Assembly (NCBI GenBank): GCA_964636865.1
Contig: CAZWVJ010000006.1
Coordinates: 24,882-88,881 of the forward strand
Length of the DNA: 64,000 nucleotides
Source: an uncultured Syntrophomonadaceae bacterium
GTDB lineage: Bacteria > Bacillota > Dethiobacteria > DTU022 > PWGO01
Direction of reading: 5' to 3'
The notes under the pieces are model-generated. The model did not search any database. It was not told the DNA's origin and saw nothing but the letters and a program-made list of their open reading frames with translations. The translations under genes were made by a program, and so were the position numbers. Position 1 is the stretch's first letter. Each line of letters begins with the position of its first letter. Shown here piece by piece: positions 16,707-30,794 of this stretch.

Positions 16707-17921
16707 TTACATTTTCTTACGCTTTAATTCCACAGCATTATGTGGGCAGACCTCCTGGCAACAATAACAGCGGATACACGAAGAATGATCTATAAATAAA
16801 AGTTCCTGCCCTGCATCGTTTCCATTTTTATTTGCCCTGTCTTTTAAATTTTTGGAATCTTCCATGCAGGTGGAAGCGGGTTGACTAATTATACACCCCA
16901 CGGGGCAATGATCCAGGCAGGTTTTACAATGAGTGCACCGACTGCCAATATGAGGCCAGGGGCGATACAATTCGCGTATTTCCCGCAGGCGGGCGGGCAT
17001 ATATCTCCACAGAAAAGACCAACCACGCCCGGAAGCGCCCTTATCAAAATCCTGCAAGCGCAGTTCCTGAAACGGGCCGGATATTTCTACATCAGAAAGA
17101 TCCTTCTTTAAATATCCCCGTTTTACTGCCGCTTCCAAAACCGAAACTTCACCCGGAACATAACCGACCATACGGGCACAAGCAGCATCAAGCGCCAGGG
17201 CATCCGGTGAAGCCAGAAGAGCACCTAAAGTACGAGGACGCCCGCTTCGCGGCCCTAAGCCTTCCATAGCCACCACTGCATCTACAAGGGAAAGGGAGGG
17301 TTTTATATTCAGGTATAAATCAAGGAGCATATGGCCAAAATCACCAACCCCGGGATGACGGAGATGATAATACCTCTTATAATTACCCGCAATCAGGCCA
17401 TAACAATTTTTCACTGCAGCTGTCAGCCCGGTGAGGGTGTGGGTCTTTAGTTTGGCTATATTGATAATAAGATCCATTTCCATGGCTTCCGCTGAAACGG
17501 CAAATGTAGGACAGGTATGCGCTCCTTCCCAGGTAAGGAATTTTTTTTCTATCAGAGGCATCATTTCAGCTCCCGTATTTTGAACTACCTCCGTTATACC
17601 GCTTACTTCTGCCACTTTTTGTAAACTGCCGTGCATAGAGCTATCGCCTATGTAAGCTTTTCCTCCTGCATTCTGCACAGCTTCAATTACTGCTTGTACC
17701 ACCGCCGGGTGAGTGGTCACAGCATCTGCAGAGGGAGCGGGAGCCAATAAGTTAGGCTTAATAAGAACCCGGGAACCAGGGCTTACATAATTTTCAATCC
17801 CTCCATAATAATGTAATGTTTCCTTTAAAGCCTCATCCACAGTATTTTGCTCATAATTTCTGCAATGTGATATGCTTGCATAGCGAGGTCCCGATTCAAG
17901 ATTTTCTTTTTCCTTGTTCAT
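16707..17921 (-). CDS. DUF362 domain protein with C-terminal 2x[4Fe-4S] ferredoxin domain
   Basis: 404 aa. DUF362-like core (VLIKPNLL...). C-terminal CTHCKTCLDHCPVGC and CIRCYCCQEVCP cysteine clusters. Confidence 0.6.
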   Translation of the reverse strand: MNKEKENLESGPRYASISHCRNYEQNTVDEALKETLHYYGGIENYVSPGSRVLIKPNLLAPAPSADAVTTHPAVVQAVIEAVQNAGGKAYIGDSSMHGSLQKVAEVSGITEVVQNTGAEMMPLIEKKFLTWEGAHTCPTFAVSAEAMEMDLIINIAKLKTHTLTGLTAAVKNCYGLIAGNYKRYYHLRHPGVGDFGHMLLDLYLNIKPSLSLVDAVVAMEGLGPRSGRPRTLGALLASPDALALDAACARMVGYVPGEVSVLEAAVKRGYLKKDLSDVEISGPFQELRLQDFDKGASGRGWSFLWRYMPARLREIRELYRPWPHIGSRCTHCKTCLDHCPVGCIISQPASTCMEDSKNLKDRANKNGNDAGQELLFIDHSSCIRCYCCQEVCPHNAVELKRKKM

Positions 17922-18211: not shown

Positions 18212-18523
18212 ATGGATGGTATATTAATGTTTACTGCAAAAAATGAACAGAAAGAATCTGAAAATCACCACAACAAAAACAGCGGCCGCTGTAACCACTG
18301 CGGAAAAGAATTAATAGAAACAGAAGCACATTCCAAAGTGGTTCGAGATGGCATTTCCACAGATTACATGGCATTACCTTTTATTTATCGCCGCAAGCAG
18401 CTGTGTGAAGTCTGTTTCAAATTTTTTAGCAAGAAAGAACGTTTGGATAGGGTTTTAGCTATTATTGGGCTTATCATAGTGATAACCCTGATTTTCTCGG
18501 TAATGCTTCCCGCATTTTTTTAA
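18212..18523 (+). CDS. Small zinc-ribbon-like tail-anchored membrane protein (hypothetical)
   Basis: 103 aa. CNHCGKE...CEVC pairs of cysteines and a C-terminal hydrophobic helix LAIIGLIIVITLIFSVMLPAFF. It is the lone plus-strand gene between two minus-strand operons. Confidence 0.4.
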   Translation: MDGILMFTAKNEQKESENHHNKNSGRCNHCGKELIETEAHSKVVRDGISTDYMALPFIYRRKQLCEVCFKFFSKKERLDRVLAIIGLIIVITLIFSVMLPAFF

Positions 18524-18634: not shown

Positions 18635-20377
18635 TTAGAAATTAAACAAGGTAAAACCAGAGTTCAGCAGCGATTGGGTATAAGAGTGCTCGGGTTGATG
18701 AATTATCCTGGAAGGGGTAGTTTCTTCAACAATGCGGCCGGCCTGCATTACACCGACTCGATCTCCGGCTCTGGCGGCCAATGCCAGGTCATGAGTAATC
18801 AGGAAAAGGGCAAAACCTCTTTCGTTCTGCAGATGCAACAGAAGCTTAATCACTTTGGCCTGAACACTTGCATCCAGTGAAGCGCTGGGCTCATCAGCAA
18901 CGAGCAAGCGGGGCTCCAAAACCAAAGCCCGGGCTAATGCTACCCGCTGTAATTCTCCCCCACTCAGGTGATGGGGATATTCATTTAGAAAGTGGTCATT
19001 AGTAGGCAATTCCACCCATTCCAAAGAGCGGCAAACAGCTTCCCGCCGGCTTTGTTCATCTCCTATTTTTTGAATAATCAGGGGTTCAGCTACCAACTCT
19101 GATACCGTCAAACGGTGACTTAGAGCTTCGCCGGCATTCTGAAAGAGCATTTGCAAATCCCGGCTTAATTCTTTCTTTGCTCTGCCCTTGAAGCGCCGGA
19201 GTTCTGTCCCCTGAAAAAACACTTCCCCTCGAAAAGGGGGATCTACACCGGCCAGGATACGCCCCAGAGTACTTTTCCCAGATCCGCTTTCTCCCACCAG
19301 GGCATAAACTTCTCCTTCTCTTAAATTTATATTTACACCGCTCACCGCCTCCAGATAAGACGATCCGCCGCTTTCGGATACGCCGTTATAACCATTCAGG
19401 CTGTATCGCTGGATTAACCCCTTCCCGCGAAGAATCTCAATCACCCCTCCCCGGTGGCAAGACAGATACCACCCGGAATTAACTTCAGCAGGAGCAGGTT
19501 GAGGGTGTTCCCGAACACAAACTTCTAAAGACTGAGTACAGCGAGGATGAAAAGGGCATCCGCCCGGACGTTCGCTTAAAGAAGGAAATTCTCCGCGAAT
19601 ACCCTGCAATTCCCTGGGGCCATCAAGAGTCGGATAGGCACGCACCAGGGAACGGGTATAGGGATGAAGAGGGGTTTGCAAAAAAGAACTAGTAGGCGCT
19701 TGTTCCAGGATAGAACCGCAATAAAGGACCGCAGTCTGAGAAGCCAGCCTGGCCACAGCTGATAGATCATGAGAAATGACCAGCACTGTCCTTTCCTCGC
19801 TTAATTCTTCCAATAAATCGAGAATTTCCGACTTGGTAAGGGCATCCAGGGAGGATACGGGTTCGTCAAGAATAAGAAGTTCCGGATCCGTAACCAGGGC
19901 CATAGCCAACAAGGCTTTTTGTACTTCACCTCCGCTGAGGGTGAAGGGATATCGATAAAAGAATGATTCCCCCAACCCAACACGGCTTAAAAGCCGGGCA
20001 GCTCTCTGATAAGCTTCTTCTTTTTGGTGGGGAAGTTCTTTCAGGGAAGGTTCCATAACCTGATCAATCAGGGGAATCATAGGAGTGAGCATCTCTCCGG
20101 ACTGCTGCCTGACCATGGAAATGGAAGATCCCCGCACCTTTTCCCACTCCCGTGATGATTTATGCAATAACTCTTCACCCCTGAATTTAACCGAGCCTGT
20201 CACTCTGCCTGCAGACATTCCCATAACTGTAAGCGCCAGGGTGCTTTTTCCCGAACCGGATTCGCCCACTATCCCCCATCTCTCGCCTTTCTTCACGGAC
20301 AAGTTCACCCCGTTCAAAACAGGCAAGTTTCCATGAGAGGTGGGAACTTTTACGGTTAAGTCACTAATCTCCAGCAT
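18635..20377 (-). CDS. ABC transporter ATP-binding protein with two fused ATPase domains (DppD/DppF- or NikD/NikE-like)
   Basis: 580 aa. Two Walker A sites (GESGSGKST twice), two LSGG signature motifs, and oligopeptide/nickel-type C-terminal extensions. Confidence 0.85.
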   Translation of the reverse strand: MLEISDLTVKVPTSHGNLPVLNGVNLSVKKGERWGIVGESGSGKSTLALTVMGMSAGRVTGSVKFRGEELLHKSSREWEKVRGSSISMVRQQSGEMLTPMIPLIDQVMEPSLKELPHQKEEAYQRAARLLSRVGLGESFFYRYPFTLSGGEVQKALLAMALVTDPELLILDEPVSSLDALTKSEILDLLEELSEERTVLVISHDLSAVARLASQTAVLYCGSILEQAPTSSFLQTPLHPYTRSLVRAYPTLDGPRELQGIRGEFPSLSERPGGCPFHPRCTQSLEVCVREHPQPAPAEVNSGWYLSCHRGGVIEILRGKGLIQRYSLNGYNGVSESGGSSYLEAVSGVNINLREGEVYALVGESGSGKSTLGRILAGVDPPFRGEVFFQGTELRRFKGRAKKELSRDLQMLFQNAGEALSHRLTVSELVAEPLIIQKIGDEQSRREAVCRSLEWVELPTNDHFLNEYPHHLSGGELQRVALARALVLEPRLLVADEPSASLDASVQAKVIKLLLHLQNERGFALFLITHDLALAARAGDRVGVMQAGRIVEETTPSRIIHQPEHSYTQSLLNSGFTLFNF

Positions 20378-21215
20378 AAGTCGGCCTCCTCAAACGCGGA
20401 TCCAGAGCAGATTCCAAAGCGTAACCCACCAGGGCAAAAGCAATAATAGTAAAAGATATAGCCAGCGCCGGCGGTAGTAACCACCACAACCAGGCCTCGG
20501 TAAACATAAATTCCCGGGCATAATGCAACATCAGCCCCCAGCTTTTCTGAGTAGGATCAAATATACCCAAAAAAGCCATTCCGGCCTCCATAAATACAGC
20601 CCGGCGCACCATCTGGACAAAATTAACCGCCAAAAGGGGGTAAAGCTCGGGGACCAGGTGACGGGCAGCCACATAACTATTGCCGGCGCCAAAATGCCGG
20701 GCAGCGGCTATATGCCCCTGTCCTCTTAAAGTAAGAACCTGCGCCCATATTATGCGGGCACCCGGGGGCCAAAACAGGAGGGAAAACAATGCTACCAAGG
20801 TAAATTCCCCCGGTTGCACATACGCCGCCACCAAAAGCACTACCAGGAATATGGGAATTACCAGCATGACATCCACCAGGCGCAGGATCAAACGCTCTGC
20901 CCAGCCCCGGAAAATACCGGCTATTAACCCTATACAAAGACTGATCAGGGTAGCAAATAAAGCAGACAGGGTGCCCACCATTAAAGTGGTGCGAGCACCG
21001 TAAAGCAGTTCGCTAAAAATGTCCTGCCCTACTTCATTAGTGCCCAGCAAGTGAGATAAAGAGGGAGAACTCAACGGCTCAGCAACGTAAGCAAAAGGAT
21101 CATAGGGTGCCAGCCAGGCAGCACCAACAGCTGCTACTGCCAGCAAACCGATCATATAGAGGCCTTTGCGGCCCATGCAGTCTTTCTTAAGTTCGTTCCA
21201 ATAATTGACGTGCAT
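20364..21215 (-). CDS. ABC transporter permease (DppC/OppC/NikC family)
   Basis: 283 aa polytopic membrane protein with the binding-protein-dependent transport signature region. It overlaps its neighbours, which indicates translational coupling. The start may instead be the internal M near 21176. Confidence 0.8.
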   Translation of the reverse strand: MHVNYWNELKKDCMGRKGLYMIGLLAVAAVGAAWLAPYDPFAYVAEPLSSPSLSHLLGTNEVGQDIFSELLYGARTTLMVGTLSALFATLISLCIGLIAGIFRGWAERLILRLVDVMLVIPIFLVVLLVAAYVQPGEFTLVALFSLLFWPPGARIIWAQVLTLRGQGHIAAARHFGAGNSYVAARHLVPELYPLLAVNFVQMVRRAVFMEAGMAFLGIFDPTQKSWGLMLHYAREFMFTEAWLWWLLPPALAISFTIIAFALVGYALESALDPRLRRPTYAGD

Positions 21216-22173
21216 CTTTTTCCCTCAATCTGGGATCAATTTTTTGAGAACCCCAATCAGCCAAAAAGTTAAAAAGTAACACACAGACGGTGATCAAGAG
21301 CAAACAACCATGTATGGTAGGATAATCATGATACTGCACAGCCACGTAAAACAGGTGCCCTAATCCGGGATAAGCAAAAACAATTTCTACAAAGAGCACC
21401 CCGGTAAACAACAACCCCACACTCATTCCCAAACGGGTAATAACCGGAGACAAAGCCCCTCTAGCTGCATGCCTGTAGCGAACCAAGCGGTCTCTTAAGC
21501 CTTTGCTCCTGGCTGTAAAAACATAAGGTTTCCCTTTTACATTAATGAGGGCACTCCTCATAAGCAAAAAATTCCGCGGCAGCTGCCCCAGGGTTAAAGT
21601 TAAAGCAGGTAAAAAAAGGTGCCGGGAAATATCCGCCAGGCGGGCCAATCCGGTATAATCCATGTGCGGGGAAGCTCCCCCGGAGATAGGAAATAAAGGC
21701 AGAAAAAAACCCAATAATAGCAAGAGCAAAATGCCCAATACAAATCCCGGCATACCGTTTAGTAACATAACCAGCACCATGGAAACCCGATCAAATTTCA
21801 ATCCCCGCCTCCAGGCAGATTCCACTCCCCAAATGATGCCCAGCACCCCCGAAACTAAAAGGGAAGTAACAACCAGCATAAGCGTCCAGGGCAGAGCACC
21901 TAAGAGCACCTGGGAAACAGGAGCGCGGAAATAGTAGGAATAACCCAAATCTCCTTGGAAAAGGTTTGAAAAGTAAACCACAAATTGTTCCCCTATTGGC
22001 TTATCCAGGCCGTATCTTTCCAGCAGGTAAGATTCCATCTGCGGAGTCATCTCCACCAGCGCGCCTCCGTACATAGCCGAAAGGGGATCCCCGGGCATGA
22101 GACGGGGAATAATAAAGTTCAATATGAGTATAATTAGCAGAGCCAGGGCATAATCTCCGATACGTCTTCTCAA
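21187..22173 (-). CDS. ABC transporter permease (DppB/OppB/NikB family)
   Basis: 328 aa. Six predicted transmembrane helices and a DppB-like N-terminus. Confidence 0.8.
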   Translation of the reverse strand: MRRRIGDYALALLIILILNFIIPRLMPGDPLSAMYGGALVEMTPQMESYLLERYGLDKPIGEQFVVYFSNLFQGDLGYSYYFRAPVSQVLLGALPWTLMLVVTSLLVSGVLGIIWGVESAWRRGLKFDRVSMVLVMLLNGMPGFVLGILLLLLLGFFLPLFPISGGASPHMDYTGLARLADISRHLFLPALTLTLGQLPRNFLLMRSALINVKGKPYVFTARSKGLRDRLVRYRHAARGALSPVITRLGMSVGLLFTGVLFVEIVFAYPGLGHLFYVAVQYHDYPTIHGCLLLITVCVLLFNFLADWGSQKIDPRLREKDARQLLERT

Positions 22174-22257: not shown

Positions 22258-23847
22258 CTACCCCTCATCTACCAAAGCCATCTTATTCAAGGGGAGGGGG
22301 GTGCCCACACCTATTCCGTCCCTGGTAAAAAACCAATCCACCGTCTCGTCATAAGCAAAATACCAGGTAGGGTAATGTAAGGTGTAGGAAGGTATTTCTT
22401 CGGCAAAAATGCGCTGCATCTCTTCTGCAAGTTCTTTCCTTTTTGATAAATCCATCTCCCTGGCCTGGCTTTGCAGCGCTTCTTTAAGGGGAGGATAATC
22501 ATAACGGGTATTCAAATGGGGAGAAGCTTTCCCTAACATAAACCTCCAAAATATTTCCGGATCTCCTCCCAGGCCGCCATGAGCAGTAATAGCCATGTCA
22601 TAATTCCAATCCCTTATACGATTATCAACCACGTTTCTTTCGGCACTCCTGGTTTCTATCTTAAGCCCTAACTCTTCCAGTTGCCCGGCCACTATTTCGG
22701 CTTCCCGGGAATAATCCGCCGCAGTTAAAAGCTCCAAGGACAAGGGCTCTCCATCTTCATCTTCGAATTCTTCACCCCGGAAGGAATAGCCCATTTCTTC
22801 AATCATACGGCGAGCTTTTTCCATATTTTGCTCATAGTCCGGAAGAGCATCTTCACCGGCAAACCAATAGCTGTCAGGGGAAATCATGCCCGGGCTTCCG
22901 GGAATTCCGTGGCCACGCAAAGCTCTTTCCACCAGGTTCTCCAGGTCTATTGCCCGCGCTACCGCCTGTCGAAATTCTAATTGGTCAAAAGGCTCCCGGG
23001 TATGGTTAAACATAAGTTTCAGGTTAAAGTCGTGCTCCCCCTGGACCACTTCATAACCTGCATTTTCCAGAGTTTCTTTTGCTTCAGCTTCTACCATTGC
23101 ATAATTTACATCGCCCCGCTGCAATGCCAAATGAGGATCGCTTACTTTAATGAACATTAATTGCTCTACCAGAGGCTCACCCAGATAATACTCCGGATTT
23201 GCCTCGTAACGATAAAGTCCCTCTTCTCTCCGGTATTTTTCCAGTTCGTAGGGTCCTGTACCTATCGCTGCTTCCGCAGTAGTAAATTCTTCCGGTTCAT
23301 CCACTTCTTCCCATATATGGCGCGGCAGAATAGGCATTACTCCCGCCACATTATTCAAAAAAGGTGCATAAGGTTCTTCCAGGTATATTTTAACTGTGTG
23401 CTCATCCAATTTTTCAATATCTTTAATTTTCTCTATTTGCGCCCAATGCGAGGGATGCTTCTCATAATACTCGTAGGTAAAAACCACATCTGCGGCAGAA
23501 AAAGATTCCCCATCATGCCAATTTACTCCTTCCCTAAGACTAAAGGTATAGCTAAGTTCATCTTCCGCAAAAGACCAATCTTTGGCCAGGGCCTCAGTAA
23601 AACCCTCGCTGTCTTTCCATACCAGTGTATCAAATAGGTAAGACAGGCGAAGATATCCCGGACCCCGGGGATAAGAAGTATAAGGCGTAGGGTAACCCCA
23701 ATCACCGTCTTCATCGCCGATAATATAGGTTTCGGCAGAAGTATCTTCCGCAGGCGAACTTGAACAGGATATTCCTGTAACTGCCAGAACAACAATTAAT
23801 AATGTGGCCAGGCCGATTACAAGTTTGTTTTTCATTATAAACTTCAC
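22258..23847 (-). CDS. ABC transporter substrate-binding protein, SBP family 5 (peptide/nickel type), probable lipoprotein
   Basis: 529 aa. N-terminal signal peptide ending ...LAVTGISCSS. Family-5 solute-binding protein fold length. It is the first structural gene of the importer operon. Confidence 0.8.
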   Translation of the reverse strand: MKFIMKNKLVIGLATLLIVVLAVTGISCSSSPAEDTSAETYIIGDEDGDWGYPTPYTSYPRGPGYLRLSYLFDTLVWKDSEGFTEALAKDWSFAEDELSYTFSLREGVNWHDGESFSAADVVFTYEYYEKHPSHWAQIEKIKDIEKLDEHTVKIYLEEPYAPFLNNVAGVMPILPRHIWEEVDEPEEFTTAEAAIGTGPYELEKYRREEGLYRYEANPEYYLGEPLVEQLMFIKVSDPHLALQRGDVNYAMVEAEAKETLENAGYEVVQGEHDFNLKLMFNHTREPFDQLEFRQAVARAIDLENLVERALRGHGIPGSPGMISPDSYWFAGEDALPDYEQNMEKARRMIEEMGYSFRGEEFEDEDGEPLSLELLTAADYSREAEIVAGQLEELGLKIETRSAERNVVDNRIRDWNYDMAITAHGGLGGDPEIFWRFMLGKASPHLNTRYDYPPLKEALQSQAREMDLSKRKELAEEMQRIFAEEIPSYTLHYPTWYFAYDETVDWFFTRDGIGVGTPLPLNKMALVDEG

Positions 23848-23907
23848 TCCTTCATAGTTTGTTCAAGGGGATCCGGCAGCCTCAAAATCCCGGTAACTTA
23901 AAAAAAT

Positions 23908-24501
23908 CTAAATGCAGTCCGGGCAAGCAAATTTGCCCTGCTTAACCCTTGCCCTTGGTTCCATAACTCCTTCTCCACAAAAAGCACACTGAATAGTTTC
24001 AAAAATGCGTGCTTTGGGAGGTATATCCAGCGGAACTGTTTGCACTTCCATAATATTTTCCAGGGGTTCCTGAAGCATTTTATCAGTGAGCTGTTGGTGC
24101 AGTTCCTGAAACCGGCGTTTCTCTTCCGGTGAAACCTCCTCCGTAAAAACTATTTTCCTTAATTCCGCCCACTCCGGTGGCGCTAAATTATTAAGGGCAT
24201 CATACTTTAAAACACACCGTATCCCTTTATCCCGGCTTCTTACTCCAAAAGTAAAAGCTTGTTTTCCCAAGTCACGGTAAATAAAATTACCTTTGCCAAA
24301 AGTACAACCGGTGAGCACTTGCACAGCATCAGCACCGCAAGCATCAGTTTCTACTATGGCCACCAATTCCTCGTCTTCTGATCTTTCTTGGTCCAAGCGC
24401 TTAAGGGCTTCCTGGGCAGCTCGGTAACCCATGGCTAATCCCGGGCATGTGTGCCCATGAAAATCTACAACTTTTTCCCACGGAGACATTTCATTACACA
24501 A
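23908..24501 (-). CDS. FmdE-family protein (formylmethanofuran dehydrogenase subunit E-like domain) with C-terminal zinc ribbon
   Basis: Motif FHGHTCPGLAMGYRAA is the FmdE family hallmark. The C-terminus has CAFCGEG...CPDC. It sits after the fba terminator and 60 nt upstream of the ABC importer, so it is probably the operon leader. Confidence 0.7.
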   Translation of the reverse strand: MCNEMSPWEKVVDFHGHTCPGLAMGYRAAQEALKRLDQERSEDEELVAIVETDACGADAVQVLTGCTFGKGNFIYRDLGKQAFTFGVRSRDKGIRCVLKYDALNNLAPPEWAELRKIVFTEEVSPEEKRRFQELHQQLTDKMLQEPLENIMEVQTVPLDIPPKARIFETIQCAFCGEGVMEPRARVKQGKFACPDCI

Positions 24502-24675
24502 GTCGATTCCTCCTTATCAATTAACAATTGTTTAAGCAACTAATTAGTGTTACTTTTCTTTAATATCGTAACACATATTGAGCAAAAACAAAAGTTTTTT
24601 ATCATTTTTTTATTAACTTTTTTATTAACGAAAAAGATTTTGCTCACAGCGATATATTTTTCAGCACCAAACACA

Positions 24676-24712
24676 AAAATCCCCTTTATTAATACGTAAT
24701 AAAGGGGATTTT
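24676..24712 (-). terminator. Rho-independent terminator downstream of fba (potentially bidirectional)
   Basis: Perfect inverted repeat AAATCCCCTTTATT / AATAAAGGGGATTT with a 7-nt loop. It is flanked by A/T runs on both sides. It lies about 30 nt beyond the fba stop. Confidence 0.7.
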
Positions 24713-24743
24713 TGCACATTTTTTGCAAATATTATCCTAAATT

Positions 24744-25673
24744 TTAAGCCTTATTTTCGCAGCCTAAAACATTAATAATTTTATGTTTTACTACCTCACT
24801 AATAGCCTCTCGAGCGGGGCGAAGATACTTTCGCGGGTCAAAGTCGCCGGGATTTTCACCCATATGCTCTCTGATCTTGGCCGTAAATGCAAGCCGTAGA
24901 TCGGTATCAATATTTATTTTGCAAACAGCCATCTGCGACGCTTTTCTCAACATATCCTCCGGAACCCCTTGAGCGCCGGATATATTGCCGCCATATTTGT
25001 TTATCTTCTCCACATACTCAGGCATTACCGAAGAAGCGCCATGTAACACTATAGGGAAGCCCGGCACTCTTTTCTGAATTTCCTCCAGAATATCGAACCG
25101 AAGTGTTGGTTCTCCCTTAAATTTATAAGCCCCGTGACTGGTACCTATAGCTATGGCCAGGGAATCTACCCCGGTTCTTTCCACAAATTCTTGCACTTCA
25201 TCAGGGTCAGTAAATAAAGCATCTTCTTCAGAAACATTAACCGCATCTTCAATACCGGCCAGGCGCCCCAGCTCTCCTTCCACTACTACACCCCTTTCAT
25301 GGGCATAGTCTACTACCCTTTTGGTTATTTCAATATTTTCTTCAAACGAATAATGTGAACCATCGATCATGACAGAGGAAAAACCGCCATCAATAACCGC
25401 TTTGCATATCTCGAAACTTTCTCCGTGATCCAGATGTAAGCATACAGGCAAGTTCGTTTCTTCCAGGGCTGCTTCCACCAGCTTCATCAAATAAGTGTGG
25501 TTGGCATACTTCCTAGCTCCCGCCGAAACTTGCAAAATTAACGGCGCATTTAATTCCTTGGCCGACTCGGTGATACCCTGGATAATTTCCATGTTATTCA
25601 CATTAAATGCTCCAATAGCGTAACCACCATCATAAGCCTTTTTGAACATTTCTTCTGAATTAACAATGGGCAT
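24744..25673 (-). CDS. fba: Class II fructose-1,6-bisphosphate aldolase
   Basis: 309 aa. Matches class II FBA throughout (GAFNVNN...LDHG...HGASS...). Colinear with Bacillus FbaA. Confidence 0.9.
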   Translation of the reverse strand: MPIVNSEEMFKKAYDGGYAIGAFNVNNMEIIQGITESAKELNAPLILQVSAGARKYANHTYLMKLVEAALEETNLPVCLHLDHGESFEICKAVIDGGFSSVMIDGSHYSFEENIEITKRVVDYAHERGVVVEGELGRLAGIEDAVNVSEEDALFTDPDEVQEFVERTGVDSLAIAIGTSHGAYKFKGEPTLRFDILEEIQKRVPGFPIVLHGASSVMPEYVEKINKYGGNISGAQGVPEDMLRKASQMAVCKINIDTDLRLAFTAKIREHMGENPGDFDPRKYLRPAREAISEVVKHKIINVLGCENKA

Positions 25674-26986: not shown

Positions 26987-28534
26987 TTACTTCTCTTCCA
27001 TTTGCTTCATAATCTCTTCCCCTATAGCGTTTGCGCCACCAAATATAAATACATGGGGAAGTAAATCTGATGATAATGAATTCAGATAATCAACCACTGA
27101 CAGGGGCATATCTGTAGGTCCGGCAAGCAACATCGGAGCTTCAAGGGTAGCCGCATAGGCTCCACCGCTTAAAGCGTCGGGAAAATCTAAACCACTGGCA
27201 ATGGTAACATTAGAAGGCCCCTCAAAAAACCTTTCCGCTAAATTCACCGCAGTCTCCCACCGATTATTCCCCGCAATACGCTCACCGGCACCGGATTCTT
27301 CATATACTTCCTCACTGAGAACAGAGGCGCCTCCCACAACATAGACCTCCTCTAAATCATCCTTATAGCTTCTCAAAAATTCCTCCGTCTTTACATCCAA
27401 AGAGGAAGAAGGAGACAGCAAAGTTATACCTCCCCCGCTGGCAGCCACACTGGAGACAGCTAACGCATCAGGAAAATTCTCTCCCGTAGCCATAAAAACA
27501 GGAAAATTGCCTTCCTCCTTTTTCAAAAACTTTTTCCCTACCTTCACCGCAGTTTCATAACGATCGTTCCCGGCAAGCCTTTTCACTTCATAATCATAGT
27601 TTTCTTCTATCTCATATTGAACCTCCGCAGAAATAGCTGCATCACCGCCTAAAATATAAACAGTGCCATCAGACCGTAGTACACGTTCTATTTCTGCAGC
27701 AGTATCATCATGCAACCTATCCGCAGGGGTAAGCAAAAGAGGGCCATTGCTGTGATAAGCAAAGGGGCTCCCCGCCAAAGCATCGGAAAATTCATCTCCC
27801 CGTGCCAAAACCACCGCATCCGCCGATTGAGAATTGGGAAACGCTTCCCGGCTTATCTCCATCGCCGTCCGGTAGCGCGATTCTCCGAAAATACGATTCT
27901 TTGATTTAACAGATACAAGGACCTCCGTTCTTAATAACCCCCGGAGAAAATCATTAACAATACTTTCTCCATAAGTTGAAGACGGAGCCCATCTACCTCC
28001 GAGTTCTTCTACATATTTAATTGTCCCGGCCCAACTGGTAGTCAATACTACATAATATCTTCCATGGGGTTCACCCACAGGGTCAATATCTACATAAGCT
28101 CCAATATGATTAAAATGGCCACGGACGCCATCTTCCGGAGTGTCGAATTTTTCATGAGCGTCAGGGCAATCACAGGGCCCTCCCTCTGCTGTTTTGATGC
28201 CGGCCCAATTGTTAAAACAAGGCTCCACGACGCCGCCATATCTACCAAAAGCTGTTTCCTTGGCTGACTGCGCATAGAGAACTTCCGGCCTGATACCCAT
28301 TAACCTGCCATACTCCCAGTAAGTTGGCGCAATATCTATAAACCTCTGGTGAGCATCCCTGCTTTGAGCCCATTTTTGCGCTTGAGAAACAGAAATTTCC
28401 GGTTCACCTATTATAGGAGTTTTAGAAGAACAAACATTAATTTCTTCAGTCCATAAAACCTCATGCCCTAAAGCCAGGGAAAAAAATAGGGCTACCACAC
28501 AAATAATTAAAGTGTAACTTATTTTTTTTACCAT
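26987..28534 (-). CDS. Cell-wall hydrolase: N-terminal mannosyl-glycoprotein endo-beta-N-acetylglucosaminidase (GH73-like) domain + 3 CWB2 cell-wall-binding repeats
   Basis: 515 aa. Signal peptide. Glucosaminidase motif SAKETAFGRY...NNWAGIK. Three repeats of the ...NRYETAV...FPDALAGS...type (CWB2, as in clostridial Cwp proteins). Confidence 0.7.
   Translation of the reverse strand: MVKKISYTLIICVVALFFSLALGHEVLWTEEINVCSSKTPIIGEPEISVSQAQKWAQSRDAHQRFIDIAPTYWEYGRLMGIRPEVLYAQSAKETAFGRYGGVVEPCFNNWAGIKTAEGGPCDCPDAHEKFDTPEDGVRGHFNHIGAYVDIDPVGEPHGRYYVVLTTSWAGTIKYVEELGGRWAPSSTYGESIVNDFLRGLLRTEVLVSVKSKNRIFGESRYRTAMEISREAFPNSQSADAVVLARGDEFSDALAGSPFAYHSNGPLLLTPADRLHDDTAAEIERVLRSDGTVYILGGDAAISAEVQYEIEENYDYEVKRLAGNDRYETAVKVGKKFLKKEEGNFPVFMATGENFPDALAVSSVAASGGGITLLSPSSSLDVKTEEFLRSYKDDLEEVYVVGGASVLSEEVYEESGAGERIAGNNRWETAVNLAERFFEGPSNVTIASGLDFPDALSGGAYAATLEAPMLLAGPTDMPLSVVDYLNSLSSDLLPHVFIFGGANAIGEEIMKQMEEK
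26990..27890. repeat. Approximately 0.9-kb direct repeat, copy A (CWB2-repeat coding region of the glucosaminidase)
   Basis: Long runs of near-identical nucleotides shared with 28563-29480 (for example ccaccgcttaaagc[a/g]tcgggaaaatctaaaccactggcaa...). Antisense pseudo-ORFs 27710-27904 and 29298-29486 are also mirrored. Confidence 0.8.
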
Positions 28535-28559: not shown

Positions 28560-30794
28560 TTAATACAATACTCTTACCAATTTAGCATAAATTATGTCTA
28601 AAACACTTTCCCTTATAGCATTTGAACCACCATATATATTTACTGCGGGTAAATTCGGATTTTTTGTTTCTAAATGAGCCATAACGGCTTCGGAAAGATT
28701 ATCAAGCCCGGTAAGCACCACCGGAGCTTCAAGAGTAGCCGCATGGGCTCCACCGCTTAAAGCATCGGGAAAATCTAAACCACTGGCAAAGGTAACATCG
28801 GAAGGTTCCTCAAAGAACCTTTCCGCCAACTTCACCGCAGTTTCCCACCGATTATTCCCCGCAATACGCTCACCGGCTCCGCATTGTTCATATACTCTCT
28901 CACTGAGGGCAGAGGTACCTCCCACAACATAGACCTCTTCTAAATCATCCTCATAGCTTACCAAAAATTCTGCTGCCTTCACCTCCAGTGACGAAGAAGA
29001 GGAAAGCAATATTATGCCCCCCCGACTGGCAGCAGCACTGGCCACAGCTAATGCATCAGGGAAATTCTCTCCCGTGGCCATAAAAACAGGAAAACTGCCT
29101 TCCTTATCTTCCAAAAACTTTTCCGCTATCTTAACAGCAGTTTCACAACGATCATCACCGGCAAGCCTTTTAACTTCATGATTAAAGTTTTCTTCTATCT
29201 CATCTTGAACTTCCGCAGAAATAGCAGCATCACCGCCTAAAATATAAACAGTACCATCAGACTGCAGAACACGTTCTATCTCATCAGCAGTATCATTATG
29301 CAATCTATCCTCAGGGGTAAGCAAAAGTGGGCCATTACTGTGATAAGCAAACGGACTACCCGCCAGAGCATCGGGAAAGTCATCTCCCCGCGCCAATACC
29401 ACCACCTCTGCCGATTGAGAATTAGAAAAAGCTTCCCGGCTTATTTCCACTGCAGTCCGGTAACGATTATCTCCATGAATACGTGAAACATCCGCAGTTT
29501 TAATAAAATGTTCCATTAAATGTTCCACACCATCTCTTATTTCAGAAAATTTATCATACAAATTATTCCCCGGGCAGCTTGTATTGCCTACATCTCTATG
29601 ACCGCATATGCGAGGAACATTATTTTTACCTCCTATGCTGGCTGAACCCAGTGGAGTTAGTGAATACTGGCTAAAACGCCAGGCAATTAATTTTTCCAGG
29701 CTGGACAAAGCCTCACCGGTGGGGTAGCCGGAATCAATCGCACTATAACCCGGTTGAAACTGCCCTATTAATGAAATCCCAACACTGGCCTGATTATTCC
29801 CCGAGCCGGCATGCGCTCCCTGCACATCCTGAAATTCCAGGTTATAATTTTCCCGGCCTTCATAAATGTTACCTTCATGGTCTATAAGAAAGTTATAACC
29901 GATATCCCACCAGTCTCTATTAATCGCATGATGATACCAAATATTTCTGACAACCTGCTCGGGGTTAGAAGGCTCGTTTTCAGTAGCAGTATGATGGATC
30001 ACAGCATGAGATACGTCTATAATGGGATATTCGGAAGGATCTCTGTAATTACCATCATCTTCATCTTTGCTTAAATCTCCTCCCCACTCTTCTCTCCTGA
30101 TAATATTAGGCATATTATTATAAGAAGTAGATAAGGGAAACAGCAAAGGCCTGATAGAACTCGCCAGAGTGGCATCATTCAAAGATAACTCTTCATCCTT
30201 TGTATTGCTTTTAGGTTTGTCATCTTTTTCTAAAGAGCCATCGGCTACTGAAACCTTTATATGATCAATTTCTTCATTTGCAGGAAGCTTAAACAATATT
30301 TCAAAAGAAGTATGAGGAGTATCTCCTTTTGTTAAATATAAATCAGACCAGCGCAAACCGGATGGGTTTTCCTCCGTCCGGCTATCCAAAACTAACTCAT
30401 GCCATTTTCCATACTGCCCGTTATTTTCTTTAGTGCGCACCTTGATCATATATTCTTCGAGGTTTAAAGATTCATCTACGGTGGAATCTGAGGAAGACTC
30501 CCCTCCTATTCCTATGCTTAAACCTGTAAAGGGAATCTCTGATTTACGTTCAAATCTATATGGCTTATCTTTCTCATATCCTTCCTGTAAAAACCATTTA
30601 AAATCCGCAGAAGGCATACCTGTTTTTTCTTCATTCAATTCAACCAAAGGATCACCGGCTTCTTGATATCCATCTGTATGCTTGCTAGCAGCTTCCACCG
30701 GTTCTATAATAATTATAATTAATAAAACTAAAGCTATACAATAACAAAACTTGAATTTTTTTAGGTAATTCAAGCCAAGCTCCTCCTTTTTCAT
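28560..30794 (-). CDS. Cell-wall hydrolase: N-acetylmuramoyl-L-alanine amidase (Amidase_2/PGRP) domain + 3 CWB2 repeats
   Basis: 744 aa. Signal peptide. Amidase_2 motifs (HHTATEN...GYNFLIDHEGNIYEGR...CGHRDVGNTSCPG). The C-terminal 300 aa are about 85-90% identical to the C-terminus of the adjacent glucosaminidase. Confidence 0.7.
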   Translation of the reverse strand: MKKEELGLNYLKKFKFCYCIALVLLIIIIIEPVEAASKHTDGYQEAGDPLVELNEEKTGMPSADFKWFLQEGYEKDKPYRFERKSEIPFTGLSIGIGGESSSDSTVDESLNLEEYMIKVRTKENNGQYGKWHELVLDSRTEENPSGLRWSDLYLTKGDTPHTSFEILFKLPANEEIDHIKVSVADGSLEKDDKPKSNTKDEELSLNDATLASSIRPLLFPLSTSYNNMPNIIRREEWGGDLSKDEDDGNYRDPSEYPIIDVSHAVIHHTATENEPSNPEQVVRNIWYHHAINRDWWDIGYNFLIDHEGNIYEGRENYNLEFQDVQGAHAGSGNNQASVGISLIGQFQPGYSAIDSGYPTGEALSSLEKLIAWRFSQYSLTPLGSASIGGKNNVPRICGHRDVGNTSCPGNNLYDKFSEIRDGVEHLMEHFIKTADVSRIHGDNRYRTAVEISREAFSNSQSAEVVVLARGDDFPDALAGSPFAYHSNGPLLLTPEDRLHNDTADEIERVLQSDGTVYILGGDAAISAEVQDEIEENFNHEVKRLAGDDRCETAVKIAEKFLEDKEGSFPVFMATGENFPDALAVASAAASRGGIILLSSSSSLEVKAAEFLVSYEDDLEEVYVVGGTSALSERVYEQCGAGERIAGNNRWETAVKLAERFFEEPSDVTFASGLDFPDALSGGAHAATLEAPVVLTGLDNLSEAVMAHLETKNPNLPAVNIYGGSNAIRESVLDIIYAKLVRVLY
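28563..29480. repeat. Approximately 0.9-kb direct repeat, copy B (CWB2-repeat coding region of the amidase)
   Basis: Paralogous copy of 26990-27890 at an estimated 85-90% nucleotide identity. Confidence 0.8.

What the first reader, a model, noticed from the sequence alone, without database searches (positions are those of the whole stretch)
23908..24580. FmdE-family zinc-finger protein as leader gene of a Dpp/Nik-type ABC importer, preceded by a GTGTTAC-N14-GTAACAC dyad
After the fba terminator, the first gene of the importer operon is an FmdE-domain protein (FHGHTCPGLAMG motif plus C-terminal Cys4 ribbon). The operon order on the minus strand is family-5 solute-binding protein, two permeases and a fused double ATPase. 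FmdE domains have no established function outside formylmethanofuran dehydrogenase operons. Placement with a peptide/nickel-class importer suggests a metallochaperone or substrate-delivery role. The promoter region carries two 7-bp inverted half-sites separated by 14 nt (GTGTTAC...GTAACAC, 24547-24574), reminiscent of NikR-type operators (two half-sites with a 16-nt spacer). No nikR gene is in the window. A second dyad, GAGCAAAA...TTTTGCTC, lies upstream.
Basis: partly seen in the sequence, partly recalled or inferred. Interest (0 to 1): 0.5.

Follow-up and report, generated by a model that had tools for sequence, protein, structure and literature searches.

The report
NikR-controlled nickel importer with FmdE-like partner
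This is a five-gene operon for a probable nickel uptake pump, switched by a textbook NikR-type nickel-repressor site, whose first gene is an FmdE-family metal-binding protein. Related genomes show this orphan family repeatedly attached to nickel/cobalt-regulated importers, which gives it a testable role.

Summary
An FmdE-family ORF (23908-24501, minus strand) keeps the His15/His17/Cys19/Cys55 metal site and a C-terminal Cys4 zinc finger. It leads an operon of a family-5 binding protein, two permeases and a fused double ATPase.

The dyad at 24547-24574 exactly matches the published NikR signal GTGTTAC-[N13/14]-GTAACAC. It is unique in the window. It survives in orthologous operons at 95% to 63% protein identity, while flanks and spacer length change.

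Across 160 non-redundant FmdE-like loci:
- GTAACAC/GTGTTAC is the most enriched upstream 7-mer.
- 13 loci carry a full site with at most 2 mismatches, against 0.19 expected.
- Three loci have nikR next door.
- Three close relatives carry a cobalamin riboswitch instead of, or as well as, the NikR-type site. That is the classic nickel/cobalt split.
- About half of FmdE-like genes sit beside an ABC importer of one of two unrelated classes.

General linkage of FmdE genes to metal transporters was published in 2010. I found no paper making the NikR/riboswitch link.

E. coli NikA ligand residues are not conserved, the second dyad is chance, and nikR is not in the window. The chaperone role of the FmdE-like protein remains an inference.

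The parts
24674..24714 (-). Terminator hairpin of the upstream fba gene (18-bp stem, GGGG core, then a T-run). It marks the upstream boundary of the importer operon.
24586..24591 (-). Candidate -35 hexamer TTGTTT. It is found by eye, matches only 3 of 6 consensus positions, and lies 18 nt from the -10.
   Evidence: Sequence. Conserved in L081. It was NOT picked up by the consensus scan, so it is inferred.
24562..24567 (-). Candidate -10 hexamer GATATT, lying inside the spacer of the dyad.
   Evidence: The spacers of the orthologous sites also hold -10-like hexamers (CATAAT, TAAAAT, TATAAC). Inferred.
24547..24574 (.). NikR-type operator GTGTTAC-N14-GTAACAC. It overlaps the candidate -10 and the likely transcription start.
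   Evidence: Unique in the window, 0 of 100 shuffles. Exact match to the published consensus. Conserved in relatives. Enrichment statistics.
24509..24515 (-). Ribosome-binding site AAGGAGG, 7 nt before the TTG start.
23908..24501 (-). FmdE-family protein, 197 aa, cytoplasmic (no signal peptide). It has an N-terminal alpha+beta domain with His15/His17/Cys19/Cys55 and a C-terminal Cys172/Cys175/Cys193/Cys196 treble-clef zinc finger.
   Evidence: AlphaFold model pLDDT 91. Foldseek TM-score 0.80 to 2GVI.
22258..23847 (-). Family-5 extracellular solute-binding protein with a lipoprotein-like signal (...LAVTGISC).
   Evidence: Pfam SBP_bac_5 at 1.6e-68. Best NCBIfam model is nickel_nikA at 143 bits, far below its 393-bit cut-off. 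PDB relatives.
21187..22173 (-). Permease 1 (NikB/DppB-like).
   Evidence: Best NCBIfam model is Opp2B 'nickel ABC transporter permease', 236 bits against a 350-bit cut-off.
20364..21215 (-). Permease 2 (NikC/DppC-like). It overlaps permease 1 by 29 nt.
18635..20377 (-). Fused double ATPase (NikD-NikE-like, with an oligo_HPY domain). It overlaps permease 2 by 14 nt.

Best explanation
This is a nickel-repressed operon for a Nik-type ABC importer with an extra cytoplasmic component.

1. When nickel is sufficient, a NikR repressor encoded elsewhere in the genome binds GTGTTAC-N14-GTAACAC. The site straddles the -10 box and the transcription start, so binding blocks transcription.
2. When nickel is scarce, five proteins are made.
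3. The lipoprotein binding protein captures nickel outside the cell, probably as a small chelate complex. The two permeases and the fused ATPase bring it in.
4. The first gene product is an FmdE-family dimer with a solvent-exposed His2Cys2 site in a wide cleft and a structural zinc finger. It acts on the cytoplasmic side as the first acceptor of the imported metal. It takes the metal, or strips it from its chelator, and buffers or hands it on to nickel-enzyme maturation systems.

Shown here: gene content, conserved metal ligands, fold, operator identity and conservation, conserved gene linkage, nikR adjacency in other loci, and the cobalamin-riboswitch variants.

Inferred: NikR binding, nickel as the substrate, and the acceptor/chaperone role of the FmdE-like protein.
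For: Operator:
- It matches the published NikR signal exactly and is unique in the window.
- The 95% relative keeps both half-sites with N13 instead of N14.
- Relatives at 68-63% identity keep them with 0-2 mismatches in upstream regions that otherwise share no evident similarity by eye.
- 13 of 160 non-redundant upstream regions carry a site with at most 2 mismatches, against a mean of 0.185 (maximum 2) in 200 shuffles. With at most 1 mismatch it is 7 against 0.02.
- There are 17 sites in 45.5 kb upstream of FmdE starts, against 14 in the other 1.42 Mb.
- GTAACAC/GTGTTAC is the top-ranked of all 7-mers upstream of FmdE-like genes: 15 loci against 1.43 expected, P 4e-11.

Independent links to nickel and cobalt:
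- nikR (NikR_C + RHH_1) lies beside FmdE-like genes in L109, L146 and L026.
- Cobalamin riboswitches precede the same operon in L001, L092 and L093. This reproduces the NikR versus B12-riboswitch split. From my own recollection of Rodionov et al. 2006 (not readable here), that split was used to separate nickel from cobalt transporters.

FmdE-like protein:
- The ligands His15/His17/Cys19/Cys55 are invariant.
- They are the residues that hold mixed Zn/Ni in 2GLZ and Zn in 2GVI.
- The only significant structural neighbours are the three FmdE structures.
- 73 of 139 loci with enough flank place the gene beside an ABC importer.

The best-scoring NCBIfam models for the binding protein and permease 1 are nickel models.
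Against: - No nikR is in the window, and the rest of the genome could not be searched.
- The NikR consensus used is itself a computational prediction for another phylum.
- No consensus sigma-70 promoter is detected on the minus strand. The promoter is assigned by eye.
- The binding protein scores far below the NikA equivalog cut-off. It is as close to AppA, Lmo0135 and DppA as to NikA or NikZ. It lacks NikA Arg97, Arg137, Trp398 and Tyr402.
- FmdE crystal structures show mainly zinc at the N-terminal-domain site. The nickel in 2GLZ may come from Ni-affinity purification.
- Riboswitch-linked relatives suggest cobalt for part of the family.
- FmdE-linked Peripla_BP_2 proteins resemble TM0189 (2ETV, substrate unknown) and, more distantly, HI_1472 (3PSA), which I recall as the molybdate-binding protein MolA. 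They are no closer to a known nickel binder.
- About half of FmdE-like genes have no transporter neighbour.
Confidence: 0.55

Rival explanations
1. The importer and its FmdE-like partner handle cobalt, or both nickel and cobalt, rather than nickel specifically. The NikR-type site would then reflect cross-regulation.
For: Cobalamin riboswitches (118-126 bits) lie 300-420 nt upstream of the orthologous operon in L001, L092 and L093, on the same strand. No ORF of 60 aa or more lies between in L092. L092 carries both the riboswitch and a one-mismatch NikR-type site.
Against: The window, L081, L084, L088 and L090 have the NikR-type site and no riboswitch. From my own recollection of the nickel/cobalt transporter literature (not read here), members under NikR are assigned to nickel and those under B12 riboswitches to cobalt.
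Confidence: 0.15
2. The operon is an ordinary peptide or other small-molecule Dpp/Opp-type importer. The FmdE-like protein is a zinc enzyme acting on the imported compound, and the dyad belongs to an unrelated regulator.
For: The best solved relatives of the binding protein are AppA, Lmo0135 and DppA. NikA ligand residues are absent. All Nik equivalog cut-offs for the binding protein and permeases are missed. An unidentified ligand, apparently thioester-linked to the active-site Cys, was seen in 2GVI, which suggests chemistry rather than simple metal carriage.
Against: The match to the NikR signal is exact and conserved. nikR is adjacent in three loci. Linkage to two unrelated importer classes is hard to explain by a shared organic substrate.
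Confidence: 0.1
3. The FmdE-like protein is itself the DNA-binding regulator. Its zinc finger recognises the dyad, its His2Cys2 site senses the metal, and it autoregulates the operon.
For: The dyad co-occurs with FmdE-like genes. The 2010 structure paper raised transcriptional regulation or metal sensing as possible roles of the zinc finger.
Against: The same signal was derived from nikMNQO/nikKMLQO promoters, for which the 2004 paper's site table lists transporter genes only and no FmdE-like gene. Bona fide nikR genes sit beside FmdE-like genes. In the crystal structures the zinc finger is packed onto the partner subunit's N-terminal domain, which looks like a structural role. Most FmdE-like genes (147 of 160) have no such site.
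Confidence: 0.06
4. The FmdE-like protein regulates the pump after translation. When loaded with metal it docks on the ATPase or permease and shuts import down, instead of carrying metal onward.
For: It is co-expressed as the first gene with importers of two different classes. There is a precedent: according to the title and abstract returned, the H. pylori metallochaperone SlyD controls nickel uptake, which in that organism relies on NixA and the NiuBDE ABC transporter (PMC7840056).
Against: There is no direct evidence either way. No fusions to transporter domains were seen among the best 120 homologues.
Confidence: 0.12

Closest known systems
E. coli NikABCDE importer with its NikR repressor
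   Same: Both have a family-5 binding protein, two permeases and two ATPase domains. Both have an inverted-repeat operator with two half-sites separated by roughly two helical turns, placed at the promoter, giving repression when nickel is plentiful.
   Different: - The half-site sequence is GTGTTAC, not GTATGA(T).
- The ATPases are fused.
- nikR is not adjacent.
- There is an extra FmdE-like first gene.
- NikA Arg97, Arg137, Trp398 and Tyr402 are not conserved.
- Equivalog score cut-offs are missed for the binding protein and both permeases.
Predicted NikR regulon of delta-proteobacteria (nikMNQO/nikKMLQO; Rodionov et al. 2004, PMC545781)
   Same: The operator consensus is identical, GTGTTAC-[N13/14]-GTAACAC, including the tolerated 13/14 spacer. 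It lies tens to about 180 nt before the start codon.
   Different: The regulated transporter there is the CbiMNQO-like class, not a binding-protein-dependent Nik/Dpp type. The host here is most likely a member of the Bacillota (closest relatives). No FmdE-like gene was reported in that regulon.
FmdE family structures 2GLZ, 2GVI and 3D00 (Axelrod et al. 2010, PMC2954224)
   Same: The fold is the same (TM-score 0.80 to 2GVI), as are the His/His/Cys/Cys site at identical positions and the C-terminal treble-clef zinc finger. That paper already noted that most family members lie beside metal-ion transporter genes.
   Different: That work named no metal, no regulator and no transporter class. The NikR-operator, nikR-adjacency and cobalamin-riboswitch evidence is added here.
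Formylmethanofuran dehydrogenase subunit E proper (fmdECB/fwd operons of methanogens)
   Same: Same Pfam family.
   Different: No fmd/fwd catalytic genes are in or beside this operon. Only 13 of 208 family members were next to such genes in 2010. FmdE is absent from the solved enzyme complex.
Cytoplasmic nickel metallochaperones (HypA, SlyD, UreE)
   Same: This is a functional analogy only: small cytoplasmic proteins with a His/Cys nickel site. HypA also has a structural Cys4 zinc site (own knowledge). SlyD acts on a nickel importer.
   Different: There is no sequence or fold relationship. Those proteins are encoded with their client enzymes, not as the first gene of importer operons.
Peripla_BP_2/FecCD-type nickel importers (H. 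pylori NiuBDE / CeuE-FecDE)
   Same: The second importer class linked to FmdE-like genes has this architecture. Some copies carry NikR-type sites (L029, L038, L058, L151) or an adjacent nikR (L146, L026).
   Different: The FmdE-linked binding proteins are close to TM0189 (2ETV, E 1e-102 to 1e-124) and only marginally similar to CeuE/NiuB (4INO, E 9e-4). This class is not present in the window.

Membership tests
FmdE family (Pfam PF02663) | Significant match to the family profile. | tested here: met
   E 7.6e-45, 152.7 bits against a 22.9-bit cut-off, covering profile positions 1-132 of 133.
FmdE family (Pfam PF02663) | N-terminal-domain metal site His-x-His-x-Cys plus a distal Cys (His15/His17/Cys19/Cys55 in 2GLZ). 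| tested here: met
   H15, H17, C19 and C55 are invariant in 20 aligned homologues. They align residue for residue with 2GLZ and 2GVI. The ligand list is in PMC2954224.
FmdE family (Pfam PF02663) | Alpha+beta core fold plus a C-terminal treble-clef zinc finger (two-domain subtype). | tested here: met
   AlphaFold model pLDDT 91.1. Foldseek: 2GVI at E 3.8e-14 and TM 0.80, 2GLZ, 3D00, and nothing else significant. C172, C175, C193 and C196 are invariant.
Formylmethanofuran dehydrogenase subunit E (functional sense) | Encoded with, and co-transcribed with, the fmd/fwd catalytic subunits. | tested here: not met
   The operon partners are ABC importer genes. The only FwdF-like score nearby is a ferredoxin-domain match of 28 bits against a 375-bit cut-off.
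NikABCDE-type nickel ABC importer | Family-5 binding protein, two permeases and two ATPase domains in one operon. | tested here: met
NikABCDE-type nickel ABC importer | Equivalog-level similarity to NikA, NikB and NikC. | tested here: not met
   nikA 143 bits against 393, nikB 175 against 447, nikC 150 against 358. The nickel models are nevertheless the best-scoring for the binding protein and permease 1.
NikABCDE-type nickel ABC importer | Equivalog-level similarity to NikD/NikE. | tested here: inconclusive
   NikE 354 bits against 333 and NikD 349 against 319. However, these whole-protein scores sum two ATPase domains, and the Dpp and Opp ATPase models score higher.
NikABCDE-type nickel ABC importer | E. 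coli NikA residues contacting the Ni-chelate (Arg97, Trp100, Arg137, Trp398, Tyr402, His416). | tested here: not met
   Only Trp100 is conserved. A His lies two positions from His416 in the close clade only. An invariant HGG motif sits at the NikA 397 position in all 23 FmdE-linked binding proteins.
NikABCDE-type nickel ABC importer | Transports nickel. | not testable with these tools
   Needs uptake or binding assays.
NikR operator | Two inverted 7-nt half-sites, GTGTTAC and GTAACAC, with a 13- or 14-nt spacer. | tested here: met
   Exact match with N14 against the consensus in PMC545781. The 95% orthologue has N13.
NikR operator | Conserved in front of orthologous genes, beyond what composition explains. 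| tested here: met
NikR operator | A nikR gene is present in the same genome, and NikR binds the site. | not testable with these tools
   nikR is absent from the 64-kb window and the rest of the genome is unavailable. nikR does lie beside FmdE-like genes in L109, L146 and L026.

The most novel reading that the evidence does not exclude
Two-domain FmdE-family proteins are a widespread, unrecognised class of cytoplasmic nickel/cobalt-handling partners of chelate-type ABC importers in anaerobes. The family has thousands of clusters and three orphan crystal structures. These proteins are co-regulated with the pump by NikR or by cobalamin riboswitches, and they receive or extract the metal at the inner face of the membrane. 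If true, 'FmdE' in methanogen fmd operons would be a special case of a general metal-delivery protein.
Probability: 0.4. Interest if true: 0.7.

Novelty: new variant of a known kind. Interest (0 to 1): 0.5.

Why it matters
Nickel is essential for the CO dehydrogenase/acetyl-CoA synthase, hydrogenases and methyl-CoM reductase of anaerobes. Little is known about what happens to nickel between the importer and the enzyme-specific maturation factors.

The FmdE family has had solved structures since 2006 and a misleading name, but no function. Here its genes turn out to carry the most enriched upstream motif matching the NikR signal, to sit beside nikR, and in sister lineages to follow cobalamin riboswitches. 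That turns a vague 'near metal transporters' note into a specific hypothesis: a nickel/cobalt acceptor coupled to import.

The hypothesis is cheaply testable by metal binding, uptake with and without the gene, and NikR footprinting. It would also correct the annotation 'formylmethanofuran dehydrogenase subunit E', which is widely propagated in non-methanogens.

Tried and rejected
- **Riboswitch or structured leader in the window.** There is no Rfam match above noise in 23800-24800. The 59-nt leader folds no better than shuffles (z = -1.4).
- **Second dyad TGAGCAAAA/TTTTGCTCA.** It is at chance level and not conserved.
- **nikR in the window.** None was found.
- **NikA-type ligand residues in the binding protein.** They are not conserved. 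The invariant WHDG motif is, from my recollection, a general family-5 signature, so it is not evidence for metal binding.
- **Other 7-mers enriched upstream (GATATGA, ATGAATG, GAATGCA).** These are the N-terminal coding sequence of a closely related clade whose start codon lies upstream of my estimate, so they are an artefact.
- **Cobalamin or Moco riboswitches in front of FmdE-Peripla_BP_2 operons.** None was found. Two cobalamin riboswitches lie after such operons.
- **DUF362/ferredoxin gene 16707-17921 as part of the system.** It is present after the operon in the 95% relative but not in the 68% relative. It is separated from the operon by an oppositely oriented ORF, so I left it out.
- **Literature.** No paper in the searchable library links FmdE with NikR, nickel import or riboswitches. 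Rodionov et al. 2006 (J Bacteriol) and Benanti & Chivers 2010 could not be read. The supplement of the archaeal fusion paper gave nothing on the FmdE-regulator fusion.
- **First crude gene caller.** It lost the FmdE ORF in 19 GC-rich loci. I replaced it with tblastn-anchored analyses.
Full report
**1. The observation**

The ORF at 23908-24501 (minus strand) encodes a 197-aa protein. It carries the motif DFHGHTCPGLAMG and a C-terminal CxxC...CxxC. Pfam assigns it to FmdE (E 7.6e-45), with a weak C4 zinc-finger match at residues 165-196.

The TTG start is preceded by AAGGAGG. Homologues begin with the same MC(N/M)E residues.

Directly downstream on the same strand are a family-5 solute-binding protein with a lipoprotein-like signal, two permeases that overlap each other, and a 580-aa protein with two ABC ATPase domains. 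Upstream lies a class-II fructose-bisphosphate aldolase gene, ending in a strong hairpin terminator.

The dyad GTGTTAC-N14-GTAACAC sits at 24547-24574. It is the only copy in the window, and none appears in 100 shuffles. No known RNA element is present in the leader.

15% of shuffles of this 25%-GC spacer produce a 9-mer inverted repeat. The arms are not kept in a relative whose protein is 95% identical.

**2. The dyad is a NikR-type operator**

The sequence matches, letter for letter, the NikR-binding signal that Rodionov and co-workers derived for delta-proteobacterial nickel transporter promoters. That signal is GTGTTAC-[N13/14]-GTAACAC, described as an inverted repeat of 27-28 bp (PMC545781).

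The closest relatives are soda-lake metagenome and MAG contigs with the same fba-FmdE-importer order. They carry GTGTTAC-N13-GTAACAC. Both half-sites are intact and the spacer is one base shorter, which is within the published tolerance.

More distant orthologous operons keep the site in upstream regions that otherwise share no evident similarity by eye:

| Locus | Protein identity | Site |
|---|---|---|
| L084 | 68% | GTGaTAC-N14-GTAACAC |
| L088 | 68% | GTGTTAC-N13-GTAgCAt |
| L090 | 64% | exact, N14 |
| L091 | 63% | two mismatches |
| L092 | 63% | one mismatch |

In each case the spacer contains a -10-like hexamer: GATATT, TAAAAT, CATAAT or TATAAC. In the window the best promoter candidate is TTGTTT-18-GATATT. 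This is a by-eye assignment, and the consensus scan found no minus-strand promoter. It would place one half-site against the -10 and the other at the transcription start.

**3. Statistics over a wider set**

I collected 166 loci encoding relatives of the FmdE-like protein. Eighty came from one genome per species, 80 from metagenomes and 6 from exact-protein look-ups.

- Sites with at most two mismatches, 13/14 spacing and either orientation occur 17 times in the 45.5 kb lying within 300 bp upstream of FmdE starts. They occur 14 times in the remaining 1.42 Mb.
- After removing duplicates, 13 of 160 upstream regions carry such a site, against a mean of 0.185 (maximum 2) in 200 dinucleotide-preserving shuffles. 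With at most one mismatch it is 7 against 0.02.
- In an unbiased count of all 7-mers in the 250 bp upstream of these genes, GTAACAC/GTGTTAC ranks first: 15 loci against 1.43 expected, P 4e-11.
- The other apparently enriched words turned out to be conserved N-terminal coding sequence of one clade.

The sites are not confined to the window's clade. They also precede FmdE-like genes linked to a different importer class, in a syntrophomonad MAG (L029), two Methanolobus genomes (L038, L058) and a metagenome contig with an exact match placed right after a TTGACA (L151).

**4. Independent links to nickel and cobalt**

Bona fide nikR genes, with the NikR_C nickel-binding domain plus a ribbon-helix-helix domain, lie next to FmdE-like genes in three loci:
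- L109: nikR, a small ORF, FmdE-like, family-5 binding protein, permease.
- L146: nikR, FmdE-like, FecCD permease, ATPase, Peripla_BP_2.
- L026: nikR about 1.7 kb upstream.

Three of the window's closer relatives carry a cobalamin riboswitch (118-126 bits) 300-420 nt upstream of the FmdE-like gene on the same strand. These are L001, L092 and L093, at 58-63% identity. No ORF of 60 aa or more lies between in L092. L092 has the riboswitch and a one-mismatch NikR-type site.

The window and L081, L084, L088 and L090 have no riboswitch. Members under NikR alongside sister members under B12 riboswitches is, as I recall the comparative genomics of nickel/cobalt transporters (Rodionov et al. 2006, not readable here), the pattern used to separate nickel from cobalt transporters within one family. 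The window's copy falls on the nickel side.

**5. The FmdE-like protein**

An alignment of 20 homologues from Desulfotomaculia, Moorella, Negativicutes and others shows these residues as invariant: H15, H17, C19, C55, C66, and the four zinc-finger cysteines C172, C175, C193 and C196.

By sequence the protein matches only three solved structures: 2GLZ, 2GVI and 3D00. A confident AlphaFold model (pLDDT 91) finds the same three and nothing else significant (TM 0.80 to 2GVI).

The paper on those structures (PMC2954224) reports the following:
- The proteins form intertwined dimers.
- A solvent-accessible tetrahedral metal site is formed by His15, His17, Cys19 and Cys55. It holds mixed zinc and nickel in 2GLZ and zinc in 2GVI.
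- The site lies at the bottom of a cleft large enough for a sizeable ligand.
- An unidentified ligand is apparently thioester-linked to the site cysteine in one crystal form.
- The C-terminal domain is a treble-clef zinc finger.

The metal, the regulator and the transporter classes are not.

**6. Gene linkage measured here**

Of 161 non-redundant loci:
- 35 place the FmdE-like gene beside a family-5 (Nik/Dpp-type) importer. In almost every case it lies immediately upstream of the binding-protein gene.
- 38 place it beside a Peripla_BP_2/FecCD/ATPase importer.
- 22 contigs are too short to tell.
- About 66 show neither.

That is 73 of 139 informative loci. The family-5 linkage occurs in Bacillota, Desulfobacterota, Chloroflexota and a Methanomethylovorans archaeon.

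The two importer classes are unrelated in sequence. From my own knowledge, both typically import metals as chelate complexes. This is why I favour a role for the cytoplasmic partner in receiving or releasing metal from an imported complex.

The FmdE-linked Peripla_BP_2 proteins form a tight subfamily around T. maritima TM0189 (2ETV, E down to 1e-124), whose substrate is unknown. They are only distantly similar to HI_1472 (3PSA), which I recall as the molybdate-binding protein MolA, and to H. pylori CeuE/NiuB.

**7. The binding protein**

Among solved structures it is about equally distant from B. subtilis AppA, Listeria Lmo0135, DppA, C. jejuni NikZ and E. coli NikA.

Its best NCBIfam model is nickel_nikA, but at 143 bits against a 393-bit cut-off. 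Permease 1 is best matched by a nickel permease model, also below its cut-off.

I aligned it with E. coli NikA, fetched from MG1655, and 22 other FmdE-linked binding proteins.
- NikA Arg97, Arg137, Trp398 and Tyr402 are not conserved.
- Trp100 is conserved.
- A His lies two residues from NikA His416, but only in the window's clade.

All 23 FmdE-linked proteins share an invariant HGG motif at the NikA 397 position and an invariant His177. These are candidates for a different metal site, nothing more. It is therefore a Nik-like importer by architecture and regulation, not an orthologue of E. coli NikA.

**8. Mechanism proposed**

NikR, encoded outside the window, represses the operon when nickel is plentiful by occupying the site across the -10 and the transcription start. 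Under nickel limitation the importer and the FmdE-like protein are made together. The importer brings in nickel, probably as a chelate. The FmdE-like dimer takes it at its His2Cys2 cleft and passes it on.

Anatomy, conservation and co-regulation are shown here. NikR binding, nickel as the substrate and the acceptor role are inferred. Four rivals are weighed in the rival-explanations section: cobalt or dual specificity, a peptide importer with an unrelated regulator, FmdE itself as the regulator, and FmdE as a metal-dependent brake on the pump.

**9. Novelty and verdict**

The transporter and the operator are new members of known kinds. The FmdE-transporter adjacency is published. What I could not find in the searchable literature is the specific tie of the FmdE family to NikR sites, nikR genes and cobalamin riboswitches.

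I rate the whole as a new variant of a known kind: a Nik-type importer with a conserved cytoplasmic FmdE-family component. Interest is moderate. It is not astonishing, but it gives an orphan family a concrete, cheaply testable function.

Noticed in passing
L001 9-195; L092 3517-3702; L093 3426-3615: Cobalamin riboswitches lie 300-420 nt upstream of the orthologous FmdE-importer operon. Two terminator-like hairpins lie between. In L092 a NikR-type site sits downstream of the riboswitch, which suggests a possible tandem B12 plus nickel control region.
   Followed up: partly
L004, L005, L022, L061, L072, L080, L109 (TrmO_N-like); L006, L016, L018, L020, L033, L041, L058 (class-I methyltransferase): Small TrmO_N-domain proteins and SAM-methyltransferase-like genes recur next to FmdE-like genes. 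In L109 a small ORF (1801-2193; tblastn-similar to TrmO_N proteins, no Pfam hit at E <= 1e-4) lies between nikR and the FmdE-like gene. A 2024 paper reports FmdE fused to a tRNA-methyltransferase domain in archaea (PMC11237513). Why a SAM-binding partner accompanies a metal-import accessory is unexplained.
   Followed up: partly
L029, about 50-190 nt upstream of the FmdE-like start: Three GTAACAC half-sites occur in one upstream region: GTGgCAC-N14-GTAACAC, then two more GTAACAC copies 13 nt apart in direct orientation. This may be a compound operator.
   Followed up: no
L092 2-3419: A second, paralogous permease-permease-fused-ATPase set (about 40% identical to the window's) lies immediately upstream of the riboswitch-FmdE-importer operon. 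This is a tandem pair of related importers.
   Followed up: no
L012 13772-13981; L079 11791-11974: Cobalamin riboswitches lie downstream of FmdE-Peripla_BP_2-FecCD-ATPase operons (about 0.3 kb after the operon in L079, about 2 kb in L012), presumably controlling the next gene. So these nickel-type loci neighbour B12/cobalt loci.
   Followed up: no
L054 6242-7348 and six similar loci: A 368-aa protein carries a partial FmdE domain (residues 201-260) after an unannotated 200-residue N-terminal region. It is encoded next to a canonical FmdE-like gene and a Peripla_BP_2 importer.
   Followed up: no
window 16707-17921 (minus strand): A DUF362 protein with a C-terminal 2x[4Fe-4S] ferredoxin domain follows the operon, beyond an oppositely oriented 103-aa ORF (18212-18523). 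The same arrangement occurs in the 95% relative but not in the 68% relative.
   Followed up: partly
window 26987-28534 and 28560-30794 (minus strand): Two adjacent large secreted proteins share a nearly identical C-terminal region of about 290 residues (RIFGESRYRTAMEISREAF... repeats). They look like a recent tandem duplication of cell-wall-binding repeat modules. The second also has an amidase-like middle part.
   Followed up: no
window 23908-24501 and homologues: Cys2, directly after the initiator Met, is present in 11 of 20 aligned homologues and in 2GLZ. It may be an additional N-terminal metal ligand, as with the N-terminal motif of HypA. Not examined.
   Followed up: no
whole window: The closest contigs come from what appear to be soda-lake sediment metagenomes and MAGs (SL_8KL_010_SED, GCA_003553635.1, GCA_003563065.1), and the next relatives are Syntrophomonadaceae and Desulfotomaculia. 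The source is therefore probably an uncultured haloalkaliphilic anaerobic member of the Bacillota.
   Followed up: partly
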